64,000 nucleotides of DNA from the NCBI GenBank assembly GCA_027023445.1, contig JALVVK010000001.1, forward strand, positions 10,964-74,963, read 5' to 3'. The position numbers were made by a program, and so were the translations under genes. The stretch's first letter is position 1, and each line of letters opens with the position of its first letter. The notes below the pieces were generated by a model, which saw only the letters and a program-made list of their open reading frames with translations, was not told where the DNA came from and did not search any database. Source of the stretch: Deltaproteobacteria bacterium (GTDB taxonomy: Bacteria; Desulfobacterota; Dissulfuribacteria; Dissulfuribacterales; JALVPX01). Shown here piece after piece: positions 1 through 62,054 of the stretch.

Positions 1-681
1 GTTACTTACTACACCGGGCATGGACGGTATGGCTCCGGCACTGATTTCGACCGCAACTTTGAAAGCTTCGCGCTCCTGGATCGACACGGAAAGTTGGAGC
101 GCATATTTAAAGATTACAGCCTGTTGCATAAGTTTCTACGAAAAGAGGGGCGCAGGTACGGGCGCAGCGCGTGGAGGCAGTTTCTGTGGAGGGAGAAGCG
201 GGGGCGTATCAGGGTACGTTTGAGCAACGAGGGAAATATTTTTATAAATCCGAAAAATTATCATCCCCATGAATTCGGAGCAAGGCTGATTTACTGGGCA
301 TTAAAGAAGGGGAGCGCCCGTCTGGCCACCGGATCATCCGGTTCCATCGGCCAGGAGATGAAAAAACCAGGCGCGCAACGCTATCGAGTGGTTGTTTTTG
401 CCGGATGCCGCACCAGAGATTACCATGGCAGGCTGCGGGGGACACCCGGGCTTGGAAGGAGAAACGCGCAACTGTTTGAAACCACCAGAACCATAAAAAC
501 CCTTGACGCGGCGCAGATTTTTGGCGCCTTTTTGGATTCACTGCTGGGGCAGTTTTCGGCGAATGCGATTGTAAGGGCCATGGACATCAATCAGGATGTG
601 CAGAGGCGCGTTCATGGTGGCAGGGGTCTGCGGGGAACATTCCGCAGCCGGGGAACCAGGTATGATCCTGTAGTACGCTGA
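1..681 (+). CDS. hypothetical protein, C-terminal part (ORF enters from the left window edge)
   Basis: Frame 1 is open from nt 1 to the TGA at 679-681; the track shows it only from the internal Met at 94. Translation begins VTYYTGHGRYGSGTDFDRNF. It has a TGHG ... FAGCR His/Cys pair, but I cannot name a family. Confidence 0.4.
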   Translation, partial: VTYYTGHGRYGSGTDFDRNFESFALLDRHGKLERIFKDYSLLHKFLRKEGRRYGRSAWRQFLWREKRGRIRVRLSNEGNIFINPKNYHPHEFGARLIYWALKKGSARLATGSSGSIGQEMKKPGAQRYRVVVFAGCRTRDYHGRLRGTPGLGRRNAQLFETTRTIKTLDAAQIFGAFLDSLLGQFSANAIVRAMDINQDVQRRVHGGRGLRGTFRSRGTRYDPVVR

Positions 682-693
682 TGGAGCCAGGCC

Positions 694-1230
694 ATGGATT
701 TTGAGCGCGCGGTTACATTACTGGAATCTCCTGACACATGGGACAGGGGGGCGAAGGCCTTAGCCAGAATCGGGAACCAGAGAGCCCTGCTTCATCTTGT
801 CAAGGCATATGAAATGCCGGAGGAAGCTGACAGGTTATGCCTCCTGGAAGCAATGGAACGGCTTGATCCGGTGGACGGTTCGCACCGGCTTTACGCCTCC
901 ACTGATCCGGAAGTCAGGCTTCGGGGGCTGCATCTCATGGAATTGTTTCCTGACAAGGCCCATCTGCCATTGCTGGCAGAGGCGATTAAGTCCTCAAATC
1001 CGGCGATCAGGCGCCAGGCGGCAAGTTCGGCCTTGTGCCAGCCCCCGTGCGCGCAATGGGAGAGGTTATTATTATCCATGCTGGCAGATGATGATGAACA
1101 CCTGCGTTTGCTTGCGATTGAGGGGTTACAGTACATGGACACACCGTCTGTACATCGGGCGTTGCTGGAGCGGCTTGATTGCGAATCTGATGATATCGTT
1201 AAACAAAGGCTGAAAGAGTCTTTGCGGTAA
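694..1230 (+). CDS. HEAT-repeat (PBS-lyase HEAT-like) protein
   Basis: 178 aa of repeated ~30-aa helical units (ARIGNQRALLHLVKAY, DPEVRLRGLHLM, NPAIRRQAASSAL, DEHLRLLAIEGL), typical of HEAT_2/PBS-lyase repeats. Confidence 0.6.
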   Translation: MDFERAVTLLESPDTWDRGAKALARIGNQRALLHLVKAYEMPEEADRLCLLEAMERLDPVDGSHRLYASTDPEVRLRGLHLMELFPDKAHLPLLAEAIKSSNPAIRRQAASSALCQPPCAQWERLLLSMLADDDEHLRLLAIEGLQYMDTPSVHRALLERLDCESDDIVKQRLKESLR

Positions 1231-1266
1231 GGGTAATGGCTTTAAACCCGGTTTATGCAGCATGTT

Positions 1267-1364
1267 ACCCGGCTACGGCCCGGTGATCTTCGTGAGGCGC
1301 CTGGTACGGACCCGCATGCAGGGTGGTGTGGGGAGGGGGAGAGAAAAACCCCCCCTTACCCGAT
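1267..1364 (+). mobile_element. 5'-truncated group II intron remnant (domain V/VI tail only)
   Basis: About 98 nt align to the 3' ends of the intron copies at 2642-2739 and 4044-4141 (tacccggctacggcccggtgatcttcgtga...ccttacccgat). The domain V region carries extra substitutions. Confidence 0.7.
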
Positions 1365-1390
1365 TGTGCTTTTCCTTAAATTCAAAGACG

Positions 1391-1720
1391 TTAAGGGGCA
1401 AACAGCTCTTGAAGTAATGCAAGTACCCTCGATTGTGCTTTTGGGTTTATAACCCCTAATTTCTTGACAAGTCTTTTCTTATCAATAGTACGAATTTGAT
1501 CTAAAATTATCTGTCCTTTCTTTCCTTGAAAAGAACACGAAATTCGGGTTGGATATCGCTTACCCTTTGTTGTCATTGGTGCCACAATGACTGTAGAAAT
1601 ATGGTGGTTCATTTCATTAGGAGAAATAATAAGGCAAGGCCTTGTTTTTGGTATCTCATGTCCAATACTTGGGTCGAGGTACACTAGAAACACATCAAAA
1701 CGGTTTACCTCCATTCCCAT
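1391..1720 (-). CDS. mazF: type II toxin, MazF/PemK family endoribonuclease
   Basis: 109 aa; the text FDVFLVYLDPSIGHEIPKTRPCLIISPNEMN...VIVAPMTTK...ILDQIRTIDKKRL is a typical PemK/MazF fold sequence. It overlaps the upstream antitoxin gene by 16 nt. Confidence 0.85.
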   Translation of the reverse strand: MGMEVNRFDVFLVYLDPSIGHEIPKTRPCLIISPNEMNHHISTVIVAPMTTKGKRYPTRISCSFQGKKGQIILDQIRTIDKKRLVKKLGVINPKAQSRVLALLQELFAP

Positions 1721-1953
1721 TCTTCCTCATCCCATTGACTTGAAGGAAATTCCAACAATTGATCATCACCATTTTGGGCCATTTTTTCAAACGCTTTTGC
1801 CCAACTTTTACGGACTGAAGTATAAGGTTTAATTACAAGCTTTTTGTCATGCACTTCCAGCTCCACCTCACTATCAAAACCACACTGTTTAAGAATTGGC
1901 TTAGGTATTCTCAAGCCCTGAGAGTTGCCAATTTGAATTATCGATGCTTTCAT
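1705..1953 (-). CDS. mazE: AbrB/MazE/SpoVT-family antitoxin
   Basis: 82 aa; the N-terminal IIQIGNSQGLRIPKPILKQCGF looped-hinge-helix motif and an acidic C-terminus sit upstream of and overlapping mazF. Confidence 0.8.
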   Translation of the reverse strand: MKASIIQIGNSQGLRIPKPILKQCGFDSEVELEVHDKKLVIKPYTSVRKSWAKAFEKMAQNGDDQLLEFPSSQWDEEEWEWR

Positions 1954-1989
1954 AACCTAAATAACCTCCAAGGTATCCTAAATAATTAC

Positions 1990-2018
1990 ATTGTAATTAC
2001 ATCGACATCGTTTGTCAA
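1990..2018 (-). promoter_or_regulatory. sigma70-type promoter of the mazEF cassette with a palindromic operator
   Basis: The minus strand reads TTGACA (2018-2013), a 17-nt spacer, then TACAAT (1995-1990). The -10 is embedded in two copies of the palindrome GTAATTAC (atGTAATTACaatGTAATTAtt). Confidence 0.5.
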
Positions 2019-2035
2019 TCTGGATTTTTTTAGGA

Positions 2036-2103
2036 GCACAACAACCAAGCTCATCAGCGGGAATGAAGCGCAAAGGAATTGCTGTCCGTGTGCATGGCAT
2101 TGT
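2036..2103 (-). other. integron attC site of the 155-aa cassette, interrupted by an intron (remaining 5 nt at 2740-2744)
   Basis: The plus strand has GCACAAC (2036-2042; minus-strand GTTGTGC core) and an imperfect inverted repeat, ending ...cattGT | intron | TAAGC. Rejoined, this gives GTTAAGC (minus-strand GCTTAAC, i.e. RYYYAAC containing the cassette stop codon). Confidence 0.6.
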
Positions 2104-2739
2104 GTACGCCCAGCATGGGCATAGACTTATGAGGTTAAAGTCCTCTATACGTGGATCCCGCTACCTGATTGCGAGGATAGCGAAAGTATTAGCCGAAGGC
2201 AAGGGCGTCGCCGCAAGGCGGGGCCTGAAGGAAGCCGGAGTGCAAAACTGTGAGCCGACGAACAGAAACGTCATATAAGGCCGAGTCTCCGGGTAAGGCA
2301 GCACAACATGTCAAGGCCCTGGATTCAGGAGATTTTGCTTTTAACCTTGAGCTGTTTTCCCGGTAATCTCATTATATGACAGGGAAAATACAGGATGTCT
2401 CCTTTCACGTCCCCTTTCATACATGGAATCCTTGATGATCAAGACTCCGCATTTTCTAACCATTTGTCAAGAATAAAGATTCGACCCTCTTTCCACAGGC
2501 GGACAGCGATACTTACGGCTCTCAGCCGCAAGGGGTACTGGCATCTTGCCCGCACCCTTGCCACTCAAACTGGAATGACCAATAAATGGCTTGCCAGGCA
2601 GGGACTGGTTTCCATAAGGGAAAGGTGGGTCAGGATTCACTACCCGGCTACGGCCCGGTGATCTTCGTGAACCGCCCTGTGCGGACCCGCATGCAGGGTG
2701 GTGTGGGGAGGGGGAGAGAAAAACTCCCCCTTACCCGAT
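2104..2739 (+). mobile_element. group II intron derivative, RT-deleted, 636 nt (copy b)
   Basis: It starts GTACGCCC and ends CCCGAT. Domain V-like hairpin: ccgccctg-tgcg-gacc-cgca-(tg bulge)-cagggtgg. Domain VI-like hairpin has a bulged A (ggggaggggga...ctcccccttAcccgat). About 97 percent identical to copy c apart from a 162-nt deletion. Confidence 0.75.
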
Positions 2740-3206
2740 TAAGCTTTTGTTGCCTTCAAATCCTTATTTGCAATGGTGACCAATCTGTCCAAAGCATCTT
2801 TATGATATTTATACTCTTGATCATAAATTTCCCCCGGAGGCTCCTCATTCCAATTTAGCTTCGGGCGATTTTTTAATTCCCTGAGAACATCAGCAGCATC
2901 TTTCGAAATGACGAATCCACCAATATCTGTGACCTTCTTCAACTTCCAATAAGCTTGGCTATATTTCTCTTGAAATTCTTTTTCCCTTTCTTCTGGCAAC
3001 TTATGGCCTAACTCATAATGGTCTCTTTGAAATTCACAATATTGCATGATGTCGTATAGAGAGGAGATAATGTCAGAGTATGCTCGTTCTTTCCTTTCCC
3101 ACCATTTCTCCGAATATATCTTTTTTAGTGACCATCTTGCAGCAAAATATGAGGCGATAATTGCCGACACTATGCCAGGTAAAAATTTAATAAGAATATC
3201 TTTCAT
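2739..3206 (-). CDS. hypothetical membrane-anchored protein (integron cassette ORF)
   Basis: 155 aa; N-terminal hydrophobic helix (FLPGIVSAIIASYFAARW) followed by a charged helical region. No family recognised. Bounded by attC core sites. Confidence 0.6.
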   Translation of the reverse strand: MKDILIKFLPGIVSAIIASYFAARWSLKKIYSEKWWERKERAYSDIISSLYDIMQYCEFQRDHYELGHKLPEEREKEFQEKYSQAYWKLKKVTDIGGFVISKDAADVLRELKNRPKLNWNEEPPGEIYDQEYKYHKDALDRLVTIANKDLKATKA

Positions 3207-3216
3207 AATAATTTAA

Positions 3217-3343
3217 GCATAACGTCACGGATCAGGGGCGGCAAACAATGCGGAGCAATGAGTCTGGGAATATCGCCAGGCTTCTTGCGGGGCACAGCCT
3301 TGAAAAAAACGCCGCGATGTTTGCCGTCACCTGCAGCCGCTGG
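3217..3343 (-). other. integron attC site of the DUF4145 cassette, interrupted by an intron (remaining 5 nt at 4142-4146)
   Basis: GCATAAC at 3217-3223 (minus-strand GTTATGC). Internal inverted repeat ggcggcaaacaatgcgg / ccgcgatgtttgccgtc. The right end reads ...ccgctgG | intron | TAGAT, matching the cassette's own 5' TTAGAT. The junction is one base off the GT|T seen at the other sites. Confidence 0.55.
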
Positions 3344-4141
3344 GTACGCCCAGCATGGGCATAGACTTATGAGGTTAAAGTCCTCTATACGTGGATCCCG
3401 CTACCTGATTTCGAGGATAGCGAAAGTATTAGCCGAAGGCAAGGGCGTCGCCGTAAGGCGGGGTCTGAAGGAAGCCGGAGTGCAAAACTGTGAGCCGACG
3501 AACAGAAACGTCATATAAGGCCGAGTCTCTGGGTAAGGCAGCACATCATGTCAACGCCCTGGATTCAGGAGATTTTGCTTTTAACCTTGAGTTGTTTTCC
3601 CGGTAAACTCATTATATGACAGGGAAAATACAGGATGTCTCCTTTCACGTCCCCTTTCATACATGGAATTCTTGATGATCAAGACTCCGCATTTTCTAAC
3701 TATTTGTCAAGAATAAAGATTCGACCCTCTTTCCACAGGTATGTCCGTGGCTGGATGAACTACTACGGCATATCTGAATACTACAGGCCCATACCCGCGC
3801 TGGACGAATGGCTCAGGAGGCGGACAAGGATGTGTTACTGGAAACAGTGGCGCAAGACCCGCACCAAGGTCAGGAACCTGATAAGACTCGGGACATACAG
3901 GCGGACAGCGATACTTACGGCTCTCAGCCGCAAGGGGTACTGGCATCTTGCCCGCACCCTTGCCACTCAAACAGGAATGACCAATAAATGGCTTGCCAGG
4001 CAGGGACTGGTTTCCATAAGGGAAAGGTGGATCAGGATTCACTACCCGGCTACGGCCCGGTAATCTTCGTGAACCGCCCTGTGCGGACCCGCATGCAGGG
4101 TGGTGTGGGGGCTGGGGGAGAAAAACCCCCGGCTACCCGAT
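3344..4141 (+). mobile_element. group II intron derivative, RT-deleted, 798 nt (copy c)
   Basis: Same 5' end (GTACGCCCAGCATGGGC) and the same domain V/VI tail as copy b. It retains a maturase (domain X) ORF fragment. It lies antisense to the flanking cassette ORFs. Confidence 0.75.
3635..4063 (+). pseudogene. remnant of a group II intron-encoded protein (maturase/X domain only; RT domain deleted)
   Basis: 142 aa containing YVRGWMNYYGISEYYRP...WKQWRKTRTKVRNLIRLG...GYWHLARTLATQTGMTNKWLARQGLVSI, typical of the X/maturase region and C-terminus of intron RTs. No RT motifs (no YADD-type block) are present. Confidence 0.7.
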
Positions 4142-4147
4142 TAGATT

Positions 4148-4840
4148 CTACGACTTCATGTGCGCTTCATAGGTACCTGTCAAATGTTCCATCATGATCC
4201 AGTGCAGGGTGAGCTCGATGAGGTTCTTTAAGTCCTGCACATCCTTGTCCTTCCATCTCCTATAATAATGGGCCTCGTCGTTTCCAAGCCAAGCTGCTCG
4301 CTGTGCGCATGCTTTTATTCGTGGATCGGAGATATCATCCCTGATACAGTTTCCTAGGAATTTCGATTGATAGTGCTCTTGTTTGCTGGGGTCTCGGTTT
4401 ATTAGGTAATCCTTAACCAGAAATTCCAAAGCCTTTCTGTAGCCTATACCACATATATCTTTTAGGCCGGATTGTTCGGCTTGATATGATTGATTCCACA
4501 GAGAACAGAAAGACGGCGAAAGAGTTTCAATGTATTCGTCAAATGACTTTTTGACTTGCCCTTTGGGAAGAACCCTGACAAAAAAGTAATCATATGTAGG
4601 ATGACCAGGGACCCTTTGATATTGAGCAATGAAGAGGTGTTGACAGTCGTCGGCTGGACATTGAAAAACCGCCTCCAGGTACTCCTCAATGGGTTCAATG
4701 ACACCATCGCAGAAAACGAATGTGACCACGTGCTGACTCTCAGCATGTATCTCGCGACCGCAATAGGGACAATGGTTTGGCAATCGATCGAGGGAGTAGT
4801 GCTGTTCTGAATCCTCAATCCACGTACTTACGTAAGGCAT
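4148..4840 (-). CDS. zinc-ribbon / DUF4145-like protein (integron cassette ORF)
   Basis: 230 aa; N-terminal CPYC...CPADDC Cys pairs. The C-terminal GYRKALEFLVKDYL...CAQRAAWLGNDEAHY...DVQDLKNLIELTLHWI resembles the DUF4145 helical domain. Confidence 0.55.
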   Translation of the reverse strand: MPYVSTWIEDSEQHYSLDRLPNHCPYCGREIHAESQHVVTFVFCDGVIEPIEEYLEAVFQCPADDCQHLFIAQYQRVPGHPTYDYFFVRVLPKGQVKKSFDEYIETLSPSFCSLWNQSYQAEQSGLKDICGIGYRKALEFLVKDYLINRDPSKQEHYQSKFLGNCIRDDISDPRIKACAQRAAWLGNDEAHYYRRWKDKDVQDLKNLIELTLHWIMMEHLTGTYEAHMKS

Positions 4841-4857
4841 TGTTCCCTTTCCTCAAA

Positions 4858-4930
4858 ATCTAACGTTTGAGTTGTGGGGATTTCACGGAGCGCAGCGTAG
4901 TGAAATTCCCACACGAACGATTTGTTAGTG
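4858..4930 (-). other. intact integron attC site (73 bp)
   Basis: The plus strand reads ATCTAAC-gtttgagttgtggggatttcac...gtgaaattcccacacgaacgattt-GTTAGTG. On the minus strand this is R'' (g)CACTAAC ... R' GTTAGAT, with an imperfect inverted repeat between them. It starts 2 nt after the upstream cassette stop. Confidence 0.7.
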
Positions 4931-4932
4931 CT

Positions 4933-5319
4933 TTATGGCTCATATGCTTCAGTAACGATAACGGGTAGCATTGTATAACCCACTGCTAGTGATGCATAAA
5001 ACCGATGATAACCATTTTTTACCTTGTATTTGTAGGTATCAGATTCATGTAGCTGTACTTCTACTGGCGGAAGCTCGCATTCAGGCGATGTAAATGCCAT
5101 AAGAATGGGTACAAGCTTATATTTTTTGAAAGGTGGAATGCCTGAATTTCTTAGAGGTGGCTCAACTACAGATATGCTTACTACCTCAGCATTACTTTCT
5201 GAGTGCTTATATGGGTAATACTTGTACTCACCAATATTAAATTCATCCATATCTGCACAGCTCCACCAATCATTTGGTAGTTCAAATTCTTTATTCATCC
5301 CAGGAATATTAAATTTCAT
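4933..5319 (-). CDS. ParB N-terminal (nuclease-like) domain protein (integron cassette ORF)
   Basis: 128 aa; ...VSISVVEPPL...PPVEVQLHESDTYKYKVKNGYHRFYASLAVGYTMLPVIV matches the ParB/Srx DGxHR-type core. The cassette 5' end GTTAGTGC (rc of 5321-5328) is the exact complement of its 3' R'' box. Confidence 0.55.
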   Translation of the reverse strand: MKFNIPGMNKEFELPNDWWSCADMDEFNIGEYKYYPYKHSESNAEVVSISVVEPPLRNSGIPPFKKYKLVPILMAFTSPECELPPVEVQLHESDTYKYKVKNGYHRFYASLAVGYTMLPVIVTEAYEP

Positions 5320-5408
5320 AGCACTAACAGTGGAATAGGCTGCATGCAGCCTATTCCAATATCCCTGACTTCAGCCTAACCTGTTTTATATCTTGCTTTT
5401 AATTTAAC

Positions 5409-5518
5409 CAAAAACAGGAAAAATTTTGGACACGGATAAACAGGGGCTGCGCACACAGATAAAGAAAAGATCCGCGTAATCTGTGTTCATCTGTGTCCCA
5501 TCATCTCTTAATCCCCCA
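5409..5518 (-). repeat. REP-like hairpin repeat acting as a probable terminator (family R1, copy 1)
   Basis: About 90 percent identical to 8327-8447. On the minus strand it reads ggacacagatgaacacagat...atctgtgtgcg...tttatccgtgtcc followed by aaaattttt. It lies directly after the stop of the 5522-5866 gene. Confidence 0.6.
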
Positions 5519-8326: not shown

Positions 8327-8447
8327 CAAAAACAGGAAAAATTTTGGACACGGATAAACACGGGCTTGCGCACACAGATAAAGAAAAGATCCGCGTGATC
8401 TGTGTTCATCTGTGTCCATCTGTGTTCCATCATCCCTTAATGCCCCA
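8327..8447 (-). repeat. REP-like hairpin repeat (family R1, copy 2)
   Basis: Same unit as 5409-5518, with an extra atctgtgttcc duplication. Its end overlaps the last codons of the DegT-family gene. Confidence 0.6.
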
Positions 8448-56266: not shown

Positions 56267-56325
56267 ATGTCTAAGTCAGGCAATAAAAGCGTTAGATTTT
56301 GAATCTAACCCCTTTTAATCTGGAG

Positions 56326-57339
56326 TCAAATCTTTATTCTTGATGATTGAATCAGCCGACAGCGTAAATTATTAAATTTTTTTTTCAGCTCAGGTTCATG
56401 TCCCAGCCTGATTCGCAACCTTTTCCTGGCCTGGCTGACTGAACTGTAATCTATTCCCCCAACCAGCCGCCCAATTTCAGCTTGGGTAAGCTGACAGAGG
56501 CGGTATAGCAATTCCATCAGCATCGCTCTTTCCACGAGATTTTTGCCGCGTCTACATATTTCCTCTCTGCCTATCCCGGTCAAATGGGTGAAATGATCGA
56601 TCAGATCTTCCGGGTCAGGCGTTTTCTCCAATTTTCTCAAGGCAGGCTGCTCCCTTTTGGAGGCCTTCTCGCCTAAGAATTTCTCTCTGATCCCCTGCAC
56701 AAAGTCAGCACTGCCTACAATCCCGGAGCCCTTACCCAAGCCCAATGGATTCTCTATCTTCTGCTCAATGCCCTGTAGTATAAACTTGCGATAGCCCAGC
56801 CTTCCCTTTCGGGTATCCCCGCCCATATATTCCAGGACAGTCGTATAATTTACAAAGTCTGTTCTTTTGCCAGCATGGAGATACCCTGGTAAACTGCTGT
56901 TTTTATATTTTAAGAGCATATCCAGTTTTTCCTTAACGGTGTTGTCGGGCGATCCCTTGATTCGGATCGGGTTGAGGTGGATATAACGGGACACCTCCAG
57001 AAGATAATTATCAGAATCAATCAGAAAGGCTTTGTATCTTCCCTGATAAAGGTGCCCGACACGGTTGTGTCTGTGATTGAAGGCAGATGTGTAGGAGATG
57101 TTGAAGTGGCGCATGAACTCAGAAAGATTGCCTTCAGGAGTGGTTACCAGCAGATGAAAGTGGTTTGGCATGCAGACATGCGCCAAAAGGGAGACGTTAT
57201 AGATATCCAGGGAAAGAGAAAGCCTGTCCGTAAAAATTTTGTAGTCTTTTTTGTCCAGGAAGATATTTTTACGCCCGTTTCCACGGCAGGTAACGTGATA
57301 GCAGGCACCAGGATACTGGATTCTCAAGGGTCTGGCCAT
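56326..57339 (-). mobile_element. IS200-like / REP-associated Y1 (HUH) transposase with a C-terminal DnaA-C-like HTH domain
   Basis: ARPLRIQYPGACYHVTCRGNGRKNIF...NHFHLLV (HUH)...GHLYQGRYKAFL (catalytic Tyr region), and C-terminal ERAMLMELLYRLCQLTQAEIGRLVGGIDYSSVSQARKRL. I saw no clear terminal inverted repeats. Confidence 0.7.
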
Positions 57340-57474
57340 GCCTAATAATCGACAAGAGTCGATCATTTGTCAAGAAAAAAGATTTGACCCCCAAGAGCAG
57401 GATTCTTGACATAAGTAAGAGTTGGTGCGTACATTGCGGTACATTGTCCATAATTCATGCAAAAGGGGACTTTC

Positions 57475-61517: not shown

Positions 61518-61619
61518 GATAGCCAGGCACCCCCGCGGCACACGAAGGGCCCTACTGCCGTTGCTTCCTTCCGGACCTGGCGGGGTTCGCAGGGTTTCGT
61601 TGCGCAGGACCCGGCTATC
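61518..61619 (-). ncRNA. ffs: signal recognition particle RNA (small/4.5S type)
   Basis: The minus strand reads ...ccgCCAGGUCCGGAAGGAAGCAacggcag...gugugccgcggg..., which is the conserved domain IV motif. The ends pair (gatagccgggtcctgcg / cgcgggggtgcctggctatc). It is located just upstream of dnaX, as in many bacteria. Confidence 0.85.
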
Positions 61620-61642
61620 AAAAGGAAATAATTATCATTGAA

Positions 61643-61735
<93 letters not shown>

Positions 61736-61960
61736 GCAGACTGCGCATAGATTATCCGATTCCCTTGAATATGCAACAGGGAAATGTAAACGGAAACGAA
61801 AGTTACAGGTCCTTGCCCTCTTTGGTTCACCCAAACTCTCATGTAAGTGGTGCTTCACACCCCTGAGCATGAAAGTTGGCTCATAGGTGATAGCCGCAAT
61901 AAATCACCTTGTTTCTTAAGCCATAAGCCATGACCCATCACCCATGACCCATCACACCAT

Positions 61961-62030
<70 letters not shown>

Positions 62031-62054
<24 letters not shown>

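What the first reader, a model, noticed from the sequence alone, without database searches (positions are those of the whole stretch)
1267..4141. Group II intron derivatives in three consecutive attC sites, antisense to the cassettes, at the same core-site position
Three plus-strand copies of one element (1267-1364, 2104-2739, 3344-4141) end in a domain V-like hairpin (ccgccctg/tgcg-GACC-cgca/tg-bulge/cagggtgg) and a domain VI-like hairpin with a bulged A, finishing ...CCCGAT. The two longer copies start GTACGCCC. The longest retains a maturase (X-domain) ORF fragment. Each copy abuts the 3' end of a minus-strand cassette ORF. Removing the element restores an attC inverse core: ...TTGT|TAAGC at copy b and (GT)|TGTGC at copy a. 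At copy c the junction reads G|TAGAT, one base off. So the intron sits inside the complement of R'' on the strand opposite to cassette transcription, after the attC hairpin. From memory of the literature, this is the behaviour described for class C 'IIC-attC' introns such as S.ma.I2 of Serratia marcescens, which use the attC bottom-strand stem-loop in place of a terminator hairpin and a TTGTT-like target. Three occupied sites in a four-cassette array, in a Desulfobacterota-like genome, is unusual. It bears on the proposal that such introns take part in cassette genesis.
Basis: partly seen in the sequence, partly recalled or inferred. Interest (0 to 1): 0.8.

Follow-up and report, generated by a model that had tools for sequence, protein, structure and literature searches.

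The report
Decayed group IIC-attC intron relics

Summary
Three plus-strand copies of one group II intron lie at 1266-1364, 2104-2739 and 3344-4141. Each sits at the GT|T position of the R'' box of an attC site and is antisense to minus-strand cassettes (mazEF, orf155, orf230, orf128).

A covariance model built from the 5' exons of 50 related introns finds only three significant sites in the 64 kb. Two lie directly upstream of copies b and c. The third is the one unoccupied attC (4845-4925). The same model recovers the known attC sites of a class 1 integron.

The protein remnant matches only group IIC reverse transcriptases among solved structures. The RNA ends are 86-90% identical to introns in arr-2 and blaIMP-4 attC sites.

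All three copies are dead. Copies b and c keep intron nt 1-230 and the last ~400 or ~240 nt. About 1.38 kb is replaced by ~165 nt of unrelated filler; the lost part holds distal domain I with EBS1, domains II-III and RT motifs 0-7. Copy a is a 99-nt tail with a mutated domain V. Copy c's "one base off" junction is a lost T.

No integrase gene is in the window, so the array is a CALIN. Multiple occupancy and deletion derivatives are frequent among relatives. This is a new member of a known kind, of modest interest.

The parts
1266..1364 (+). Copy a: 5'-truncated intron tail, comprising the last codons of the intron protein, a mutated domain V, and domain VI
   Evidence: 93/99 nt identical to copy b and 86/99 to copy c. 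Rfam Intron_gpII scores only 24.2 bits. The 5' strand of domain V reads GGCGCCTGGTACGG where copy b has ACCGCCCTGTGCGG.
1365..1369 (+). 3' exon TGTGC: the remaining part of the R'' complement (GT|TGTGC) of the mazEF cassette's attC. The rest of that attC is deleted.
   Evidence: Read from the sequence. It fits the T-RRRY pattern seen at the 3' junctions tabulated in relatives.
1391..1953 (-). mazF (1391-1720) and mazE (1705-1953) toxin-antitoxin cassette, with its own promoter-like site at 2018..1990
   Evidence: Pfam PemK_toxin E 7.7e-29 and MazE_antitoxin E 3.5e-8. TTGACA-17-TACAAT, 11 of 12 matches.
2023..2103 (+). attC bottom strand (R' complement GCACAAC at 2036-2042, L boxes, ...ATTGT) of the orf155 cassette; forms the 5' exon of copy b
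   Evidence: Model R1: 29.7 bits, E 1e-4. The hairpin is weak, -11 kcal/mol.
2104..2739 (+). Copy b (636 nt): intron nt 1-230, filler at about 2334-2498, then the C-terminal ORF remnant (2395-2661, 88 aa), domain V and domain VI
   Evidence: It carries an extra 162-nt deletion relative to copy c, between ACAGG repeats.
2739..3206 (-). Cassette orf155, function unknown. Its stop codon overlaps the R''/intron junction; TAAGC at 2740-2744 is the rest of the R'' complement.
   Evidence: No Pfam or NCBIfam match.
3194..3343 (+). Long attC bottom strand (R' complement GCATAAC at 3216-3222; bulged hairpin at about 3228-3339) of the orf230 cassette; forms the 5' exon of copy c and has lost its final T
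   Evidence: Model R1: 20.1 bits, E 0.022. DNA fold -28.8 kcal/mol. Homologous 5' exons in L020 and L089 end GCAGCCGCTGGT|.
3344..4141 (+). Copy c (798 nt): intron nt 1-230 (3344-3573), filler (about 3574-3738), X-domain and C-terminal ORF (3635-4063, 142 aa), domain V (4073-4104), domain VI with bulged A at 4135
3414..3442 (-). P1out-like motif TTGCCT-17-TATCCT on the strand complementary to the intron (intron nt 99 to 71). The same motif lies in copy b at 2174-2202.
   Evidence: Pattern search. The position matches the published P1out, at 73-105 of domain I (PMC3001079). It falls below the threshold of the generic promoter scan. Function is inferred only.
4142..4840 (-). TAGAT (4142-4146, rest of the R'' complement) and cassette orf230 (4148-4840)
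   Evidence: Weak Pfam DUF4145 match, E 0.0048, below the family cut-off.
4845..4931 (+). Unoccupied attC bottom strand: ATCTAAC at 4858-4864, L-box hairpin, ...TTTGT|TAGTGC at 4921-4931. The TTGT|T target is intact.
   Evidence: Model R1: 31.6 bits, E 3.6e-5, the best hit in the window. Fold.
4933..5319 (-). Cassette orf128, function unknown; first cassette of the array
   Evidence: No family match.

Best explanation
Positions about 1266-5320 hold a four-cassette array on the minus strand with no integrase gene nearby (a CALIN). It lies in a chromosome whose intron relatives are mostly from Desulfobacterota.

**How the introns got there (inferred from established group IIC biology).** A group IIC-attC intron invaded three of the four attC sites by retrohoming. 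The intron RNP recognises the folded bottom-strand attC hairpin. A 4-nt EBS1 pairs with T(T/G)GT and EBS3 pairs with the next T. The RNA reverse-splices between GT and T of the R'' complement and is copied into DNA.

**What the copies are now (shown).** All three are dead.
- Copies b and c descend from one already-damaged copy. In it, about 1.38 kb was replaced by about 165 nt of unrelated DNA. The lost part held distal domain I with EBS1, domains II and III, and RT motifs 0-7.
- Copy b then lost a further 162 nt.
- Copy c lost the T at its 5' junction.
- Copy a keeps only 99 nt and has a mutated domain V.

**How one lesion came to sit in two attC sites (inferred).** Such an RNA cannot reverse-splice, so the shared lesion is best explained by DNA-level exchange between neighbouring intron copies: gene conversion or homologous recombination.

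**Present effects (inferred).** The relics split three R boxes. They place structured antisense DNA between cassettes and may supply a weak outward promoter.
For: **Intron identity.** Rfam domains V-VI and D1-D4 hits. GIIM domain in the ORF.

**Class C.**
- The 142-aa fragment hits only GsI-IIC RT and the 7UIM maturase in the PDB, both at E 3e-15.
- The closest full-length relative, L087 (2013 nt, 446-aa protein, 84% identical to the fragment), scores 469 and 362 bits against those two proteins. It scores 157 bits against LtrA and 141 against the T.el4h protein.

**attC lineage.**
- Domains V-VI are 86-90% identical, and the first 178 nt 70-72% identical, to introns in the arr-2 and blaIMP-4 attC sites of class 1 integrons, which have the same orientation and the same TTGT| junction.
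- In relatives, most of the 61 5' junctions end T(T/G)GT, and the 3' junctions tabulated almost all start T-RRRY.
- Three related loci have an intI homologue on the expected side and strand.

**attC sites.**
- The 5' exons of relatives share YAACG...GTC...TTGT and a covarying hairpin; six of eight predicted pairs show compensatory changes.
- Model R1 hits only 4845-4925, 2023-2103 and 3194-3344 in the window; the next-best hit has E 2.4.
- R1 also finds the qacG2, aacA4 and blaIMP-4 attC sites in an integron that was not used to train it.

**Decay.** Alignments to L006 and L087 show the deletion. The filler has no homologue in any relative. The candidate EBS1 (RYAR, about nt 250) lies 20 nt beyond the breakpoint.

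**DNA-level exchange.** Copies b and c share the identical deletion and filler. They are 147/149 identical over the first 149 nt of their shared 3' segment but only 87/96 over the last ~100 aligned columns, where domain VI differs. In domain VI, copy b matches copy a at all but one position.

**No integrase.** tblastn with IntI1 finds nothing in the window.

**Foreign DNA.** GC is 0.37-0.45 in the cassettes and 0.52-0.60 in the flanks.
Against: - No phylogeny with class-labelled intron proteins was built. Placement inside the IIC-attC clade rests on similarity and on target-site behaviour.
- The attC upstream of copy b folds weakly, and the one upstream of copy c scores only 20 bits.
- The mazEF cassette's attC is represented by 5 nt only.
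- The gene-conversion step is inferred from sequence mosaicism in three copies. A segmental duplication followed by cassette replacement is not excluded.
- Only 64 kb of the genome was seen, so an integrase gene or a full-length intron could exist elsewhere.
- The retrohoming mechanism itself comes from the literature and was not tested here.
Confidence: 0.85

Rival explanations
1. Copies b and c are functional non-autonomous (ORF-less) introns. A full-length intron protein mobilises and splices them in trans, and this is how the same deleted form reached two attC sites.
For: Copies b and c share one deletion but sit in different attC sites. Both keep intact domains V-VI, scoring 47 bits. A 713-nt contig from a sister sample (L004) carries the c-type element next to a different 3' exon. 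ORF-less bacterial introns served in trans are known (PMC4424553).
Against: They lack about 290 nt of ribozyme, including the candidate EBS1, the end of domain I, and domains II and III. Copy c's 5' splice junction has lost a base. No protein carrying an RT domain and more than about 82% identical appears among the top hits from 5.8 billion proteins. The window holds no full-length copy. L004 is a short repeat contig, half b/c-like and half d-like, so it may be chimeric.
Confidence: 0.04
2. The relics have been exapted. The retained 5' 230 nt supplies an outward promoter (P1out) that drives the next cassette in an array with no Pc promoter, and this is why these stubs persist.
For: Both copies have TTGCCT-17-TATCCT on the complementary strand at intron nt 71-99. 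That is where functional P1out promoters were mapped in G.s.I1, Sh.ba.I2 and N.e.I1 (PMC3001079). Many deletion derivatives in relatives also keep the first 57-287 nt.
Against: The motif scores 8 of 12, below the threshold of the generic promoter scan. Only 18 of 63 sequences checked (61 relatives plus copies b and c) show a TTGCCN-16/18-TANNNT motif there. The mazEF cassette downstream of copy b has its own much stronger promoter. Keeping both ends is also what random internal deletions would leave. G.s.I1 P1out was weaker than Pcweak in E. coli.
Confidence: 0.1
3. The flanks are ordinary terminator-type hairpins rather than attC sites, and this is a generic class C intron behind terminators in a variable gene island.
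For: No integrase gene in the window. The hairpin upstream of copy b is weak. IIC-attC introns can also use terminators (PMC7923331); one relative, L010, appears to sit behind a GC-rich hairpin that is not an attC.
Against: The introns are antisense to the adjacent genes, the opposite of insertion behind a terminator. RYYYAAC and GTTRRRY boxes lie at both ends of each site. The attC model is significant at exactly these sites and at one unoccupied site between two cassettes, and it was validated on a class 1 integron. Gene packing, a toxin-antitoxin cassette and low GC are typical of cassette arrays.
Confidence: 0.03

Closest known systems
Group IIC-attC introns of integrons: S.ma.I2 of Serratia marcescens, the arr-2 intron of K. 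pneumoniae (AJ971342), the blaIMP-4 intron, G.s.I1 of Geobacter sulfurreducens
   Same: Same target: attC bottom strand, at R'', TTGT|T. Same orientation, antisense to the cassettes. Same intron termini (GTACGCCC...GGCTACCCGAT), with domains V-VI 86-90% identical. The proteins of close full-length relatives are 49-52% identical. A P1out-like motif lies at the same place in domain I.
   Different: The window copies are deletion or truncation relics with no RT, no EBS1 region and no domains II-III. They lie in an integrase-less chromosomal array, not in a mobile class 1 integron.
UHB.F1, a 5'-truncated IIC-attC intron in a cassette array from a soda-lake metagenome (PMC7923331)
   Same: A defective IIC-attC intron, antisense, in an environmental cassette array that also carries toxin-antitoxin cassettes and may be a CALIN.
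   Different: UHB.F1 is a single copy that keeps nearly all RT domains. Here there are three copies, two of them sharing an internal deletion with filler DNA.
Ordinary group IIC introns behind transcription terminators (B.h.I1, GsI-IIC, the E. rectale IIC intron solved with its DNA hairpin target)
   Same: Class C protein, with GsI-IIC RT as the best solved-structure match. A short IBS1 plus an upstream DNA stem-loop serves as the target. No endonuclease domain; the protein of relatives ends where GsI-IIC RT ends.
   Different: Those introns lie in the sense orientation after terminators. These lie antisense inside attC recombination sites.
ORF-less bacterial group II introns spliced or mobilised in trans (reviewed in PMC4424553)
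   Same: Short copies lacking the RT, in lineages where full-length relatives exist.
   Different: True ORF-less introns keep a complete ribozyme. Copies b and c lack about 290 nt of it.
CALIN (cluster of attC sites lacking an integron integrase)
   Same: Several attC sites and promoterless-looking cassettes on one strand, with no intI within reach.
   Different: Only one of the four attC sites is still intact. Three are split by intron relics, and one of those has also lost its hairpin.

Membership tests
Group II intron (ribozyme) | Domain V and domain VI with a bulged branch-point A near the 3' end | tested here: met
   Rfam Intron_gpII scores 46.9 and 47.2 bits for copies b and c. Copy a scores 24.2 bits, below threshold. 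The bulged A at 4135 lies 7 nt from the 3' end.
Group II intron (ribozyme) | Complete domains I-III, including the exon-binding site | tested here: not met
   Only nt 1-230 are colinear with the full-length relatives L006 and L087. Nt 231 to about 1610 are replaced by filler. The full-length relatives do have these parts.
Group II intron (retroelement) | Intron-encoded protein with RT motifs 0-7 plus the X (maturase) domain | tested here: not met
   Only the X domain and C-terminus survive: GIIM in copy c, and no domain in copy b. Relatives encode 446-aa proteins with an RT.
Class C (IIC) group II introns | Protein groups with class C reverse transcriptases | tested here: met
   The 142-aa fragment hits only GsI-IIC RT and the 7UIM maturase. 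The L087 protein scores 469 and 362 bits against them, versus 157 (LtrA, IIA) and 141 (T.el4h, IIB). The class labels of the PDB entries other than GsI-IIC come from my own knowledge. This is a similarity ranking, not a tree.
Class C (IIC) group II introns | Target is a DNA stem-loop followed by a short (3-4 nt) IBS1, with no IBS2 | tested here: met
   The 5' exons of relatives share a covarying hairpin followed by T(T/G)GT. One intron sequence is found at both TTGT and TGGT sites (L009, L010, L012).
Group IIC-attC lineage | Inserted in the attC bottom strand at R'', consensus TTGT/T | tested here: met
   Copy b: ATTGT|...|TAAGC. Copy c: GCTGG(T lost)|...|TAGAT. Copy a: 3' half only, |TGTGC. 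attC identity from model R1.
Group IIC-attC lineage | Oriented opposite to cassette transcription | tested here: met
   Introns are on the + strand and all four cassette ORFs on the - strand.
Group IIC-attC lineage | Protein falls in the monophyletic attC subclade of class C (PMC3001079) | tested here: inconclusive
   After one Methylocalor record, the best plasmid-borne matches to the L006 protein are the integron introns (52.4% and 48.7%); other introns score 47.5% or less. No tree with labelled references could be built.
Group IIC-attC lineage | Outward promoter (Pout) in domain I or II | tested here: inconclusive
   TTGCCT-17-TATCCT at intron nt 71-99 on the complementary strand. It is not picked up by the generic scan, and activity was not tested.
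Integron / CALIN | attC sites with R' and R'' boxes and a paired L box on the bottom strand | tested here: met
   R1 hits of 31.6, 29.7 and 20.1 bits, all on the + strand between cassettes. The model was validated on the qacG2, aacA4 and blaIMP-4 attC sites.
Integron (complete) | intI integrase gene and attI next to the array | tested here: not met
   tblastn with IntI1 gives no hit better than E 2.8 in 64 kb. The genes beyond the array are a CGGC-domain gene, pyrE-like and purB-like genes. The array is therefore a CALIN as far as the window shows.

The most novel reading that the evidence does not exclude
Intron copies lodged in neighbouring attC sites recombine with one another at the DNA level. 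Here this would have spread one deletion-plus-filler allele to two attC sites and moved a domain VI patch between copies a and b. The surviving stubs (5' 230 nt with a P1out-like promoter, plus a structured 3' end) would be retained because they act as expression or insulation modules in arrays that have lost their integrase. That would give natural evidence for the inter-intron recombination step that the Leon-Roy cassette-formation model needs.
Probability: 0.12. Interest if true: 0.55.

Novelty: new member of a known kind. Interest (0 to 1): 0.27.

Why it matters
The finding adds a clean, well-delimited example of IIC-attC introns in an environmental chromosomal cassette array, probably from a Desulfobacterota genome.

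Together with the 80 related loci it shows three things about this lineage:
- It is abundant in such genomes.
- It often occupies several consecutive attC sites.
- It leaves many truncated or internally deleted relics, about half of the copies surveyed.

This bears on two questions. One is how long non-mobile intron derivatives persist in bacteria. The other is how intron insertion at R'' may freeze cassettes in place.

The shared deletion and the mosaic domain VI hint at recombination between intron copies. That step is assumed, but not documented, in the cassette-genesis hypothesis. The evidence here is circumstantial.

Tried and rejected
1. **Integrase or full-length intron in the window.** tblastn with IntI1 and blastn with copy c found nothing.
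2. **Origin of the filler (about 3574-3738).** It has no homologue in any related locus. Only a 24-nt motif resembles a sequence beside an IS200-like gene at 57367-57390. Its origin is unresolved.
3. **N-terminus of the 142-aa ORF.** I first read the tblastn matches to residues 8-142 as homology of the ORF's N-terminus. The BLASTP alignment shows almost no identity there, so the N-terminal 35 residues are translated filler.
4. **Metagenome scan for the domain I/filler junction.** No hits, so there is no evidence that the deleted form occurs elsewhere in JGI metagenomes.
5. **EBS1 assignment by covariation with IBS1.** The loop aligns as RYAR, complementary to UUGU when wobble pairs are allowed. 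It does not covary with the TGGT variants; identical introns use both targets. The assignment stays an inference.
6. **Functions of the cassettes.** orf155, orf230 and orf128 gave no significant Pfam or NCBIfam match. Cluster look-ups returned no names and no organism.
7. **Key papers.** Leon & Roy 2009 (PMC2747902 and PMC2714756) are not held. Their content is cited through PMC3001079 and PMC7923331.
8. **Contig L004.** It suggests a further site for the c-type element, but it is a 713-nt repeat contig and may be chimeric.

Full report

Yes. Rfam with gathering thresholds reports domains V-VI of a group II intron at 2670-2739 and 4072-4141 (46.9 and 47.2 bits). It reports the D1-D4 family group-II-D1D4-3 at 2207-2364 and 3447-3604 (65.5 and 67.6 bits). 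All hits are on the + strand.

The short copy at 1266-1364 reaches only 24.2 bits. It is nevertheless 93/99 identical to copy b. Its low score comes from substitutions in the 5' strand of domain V.

Copies b and c start GTACGCCC, and all three end CCCGAT. The ORF 3635-4063 carries the maturase-specific GIIM domain (E 7.9e-12).

An independent metagenome scaffold (L003) matches window 1-4143 at 99.78% identity. The triple arrangement is therefore not an assembly artefact.

**2. The surroundings.**

Four ORFs lie on the minus strand between about 1391 and 5319:
- mazF and mazE (Pfam E 7.7e-29 and 3.5e-8)
- orf155
- orf230 (weak DUF4145 match)
- orf128

GC falls to 0.37-0.45 in this stretch, against 0.52-0.60 in the flanks. 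The flanks hold a HEAT-repeat gene on one side. On the other side are a CGGC-domain gene, pyrE-like and purB-like genes.

No integrase is present. tblastn with IntI1 gives nothing better than E 2.8 in 64 kb.

**3. Are the flanks attC sites?**

I collected 80 loci from GTDB genomes that encode relatives of the ORF and extracted their intron junctions.
- Most of the 61 5' exons end in T(T/G)GT.
- The 3' exons tabulated almost all begin with T followed by RRRY. Together this is GT|T-RRRY, the complement of an R'' box.
- The 80 nt upstream share YAACG (the complement of R'), a covarying hairpin and a conserved GTC. Six of eight predicted pairs show compensatory changes.
- Three of these loci have an intI homologue (40-52% identical to IntI1) on the expected side and strand.

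A covariance model (R1) built from 50 such 5' exons, none from this genome, was run over the whole window with filters off. It gives exactly three significant hits, all on the + strand:
- 4845-4925 (31.6 bits)
- 2023-2103 (29.7 bits)
- 3194-3344 (20.1 bits)

The next-best hit has E 2.4. Two hits end precisely at the 5' ends of copies b and c. The third is an unoccupied site between orf128 and orf230, reading ...TTTGT|TAGTGC.

As a control, R1 was run on a class 1 integron that was not in the training set (L085). It finds the qacG2, aacA4 and blaIMP-4 attC sites and nothing else.

**4. What intron is it?**

The closest full-length relatives are L087 (2013 nt) and L006 (1975 nt).
- L087 is 92% identical to copy c over intron nt 1-234. 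Its intact 446-aa protein is 84% identical to the copy c fragment.
- L006 was aligned.

Against solved structures, the L087 protein matches as follows:

| PDB protein | Bits |
|---|---|
| GsI-IIC RT | 469 |
| 7UIM group II maturase | 362 |
| LtrA | 157 |
| T.el4h protein | 141 |

The window's own 142-aa fragment matches only the first two, both at E 3e-15. This supports class C.

Among plasmids, and after one Methylocalor record, the best matches to the L006 protein are introns sitting in class 1 integrons:
- intI1-blaIMP-4-intron-qacG2, 52.4% identity
- intI1-arr-2-intron-aacA4, 48.7% identity

The second is the arrangement published for AJ971342 as a IIC-attC intron (PMC3001079).

Those introns begin GTACGCCC after ...TTGT and end GGCTACCCGAT|T. 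Their domains V-VI are 86-90% identical to copy c.

The literature defines IIC-attC introns by three features:
- insertion in the attC bottom strand at R'' (TTGT/T)
- orientation opposite to the cassettes
- a monophyletic protein clade

It also records them in CALINs, Geobacter and Desulfurivibrio. The first two features are met here. The third is only supported by similarity, because no tree with labelled references could be built.

**5. The state of the copies.**

Alignment with L006 and L087 shows that copies b and c keep intron nt 1-230. Then come about 165 nt with no homologue in any relative (about 3574-3738). Homology resumes at the X domain.

About 1.38 kb is missing. The lost part holds the distal part of domain I, domains II and III, and RT motifs 0-7.

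The loop that aligns across relatives as RYAR is the likely EBS1. It reads ACAA in L006, GCAG in L087 and the arr-2 intron, and GCAA in the blaIMP-4 intron, and it is complementary to UUGU. It lies about 20 nt past the breakpoint. This assignment is an inference, helped by my recollection of the Oceanobacillus IIC structure.

The other defects are:
- Copy b has a further 162-nt deletion between ACAGG repeats.
- Copy a is a 99-nt tail whose upstream attC hairpin is gone. It abuts chromosomal DNA.
- The first 35 residues of the 142-aa ORF are translated filler.

None of the three can be an active ribozyme or retroelement.

**6. The "one base off" junction.**

Homologous attC sites in L020 and L089 end ...GCAGCCGCTGGT|GTACGCCC. 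Copy c reads ...GCAGCCGCTGG|GTACGCCC.

Copy c has therefore lost the last T of its 5' exon. With the T restored the site reads GGT|TAGAT, that is GTTAGAT. TGGT is a common variant of the target among the 61 junctions.

**7. How did one lesion get into two attC sites?**

Copies b and c share the identical deletion and filler. Yet they sit in different attC sites (81 and 151 nt long) next to different cassettes.

Over the first 149 nt of their shared 3' segment they are 147/149 identical. Over the last ~100 aligned columns, where domain VI differs, they are 87/96 identical. In domain VI, copy b carries the variant found in copy a, while copy c carries the variant of L001, L006 and L087. The two variants differ by compensatory changes.

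An RNA without EBS1 and domains II-III cannot reverse-splice. The simplest account is gene conversion or homologous recombination between intron copies that had entered neighbouring attC sites independently. This is inference. Duplication followed by cassette turnover is not excluded.

**8. Is it unusual?**

No.
- Ten of the 80 related loci carry two or three intron copies within 12 kb, often spaced like consecutive cassettes (L033, L047, L070, L082).
- Of 89 related intron 3' ends, 41 belong to full-length copies. Ten have internal deletions with both ends kept, and about 27 appear 5'-truncated. Eleven are cut by contig ends.
- The same genome has a second array (L001) that ends in a 5'-truncated copy next to a HEPN/AbiV cassette.
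- A truncated IIC-attC intron in an environmental array with toxin-antitoxin cassettes has been published (PMC7923331).
- Introns in the last cassette are said to be the commonest case (PMC3001079).

**9. Likely present-day effects (inferred).**

Each relic separates GT from T-RRRY. This splits the R box of its attC and probably hinders integrase-mediated excision.

Both long copies keep TTGCCT-17-TATCCT on the complementary strand at intron nt 71-99. Functional P1out promoters were mapped at that position. The motif is weak, however, and is missed by the generic scan. The mazEF cassette also has its own strong promoter at 2018..1990.

**10. Verdict.**

It is a new member of a known kind: IIC-attC introns in an integrase-less cassette array, in an advanced state of decay. 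The claims of rarity and of relevance to cassette genesis are not borne out. The one exception is the circumstantial sign of recombination between copies.

Noticed in passing
window 1362-1373 and 1431-1442: The 12-mer GATTGTGCTTTT occurs only twice in 64 kb, 69 nt apart. One copy is at the junction of copy a with its 3' exon. The other lies inside the 3' coding end of mazF. With flanks, TACCC(TC)GATTGTGCTTTT matches at 17 of 17 positions apart from a 2-nt indel. This may be a trace of a microhomology-mediated rearrangement; it is unexplained.
   Followed up: partly
window 2464-2487, 3704-3727, 57367-57390 (inverted partner near 56321-56343): A 24-nt motif in the filler of copies b and c (TTGTCAAGAATAAAGATTCGACCC) recurs with 2 mismatches just upstream of an IS200-like Y1 transposase gene (56356-57342, minus strand). 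A similar sequence lies in inverted orientation at the gene's other end. The filler may derive from such an element.
   Followed up: partly
window 5467-5498 and 8386-8417: An intergenic repeat, AAGATCCGCGTAATCTGTGTTCATCTGTGTCC (31 of 32 nt identical, part of a longer repeat), occurs just past the cassette array and again about 2.9 kb further on. Function unknown.
   Followed up: no
L001:9900-11400 and L002:9900-13300: A second locus exists in the same metagenome sample and in a sister assembly, downstream of coaE. In L001 a 5'-truncated intron copy is followed by a HEPN_AbiV cassette and an attC-like site. In L002 the relic is cut inside domain VI and is followed by Cas2-Cas2-RT-Cas1. The boundary inside the intron argues for a rearrangement that was not site-specific.
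   Followed up: partly
L004 (713-nt contig, sister sample): This contig carries the c-type deleted intron with the identical 142-aa ORF, but next to a different 3' exon (TATGCGAAGCC...). It is either a further occupied attC site or a chimeric repeat contig.
   Followed up: partly
L070, L082, L033, L047 (related genomes): These are arrays with two or three full-length or deleted IIC-attC introns in consecutive attC sites. In L082, for example, two identical 1.9-kb introns lie about 700 nt apart. Relatives occur across many Desulfobacterota MAGs and in a few other phyla.
   Followed up: partly
window 61518-62054: Bacterial small SRP RNA (61518-61616) and two long-variable-arm tRNA genes (61646-61735 and 61964-62054) lie on the minus strand. 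These are ordinary housekeeping RNAs.
   Followed up: no
window 5320-5420: A perfect 26-nt palindrome, GGAATAGGCTGCATGCAGCCTATTCC, lies just upstream of orf128 at the head of the array. The attC model does not recognise it. It could be a terminator or a remnant of the array boundary.
   Followed up: no
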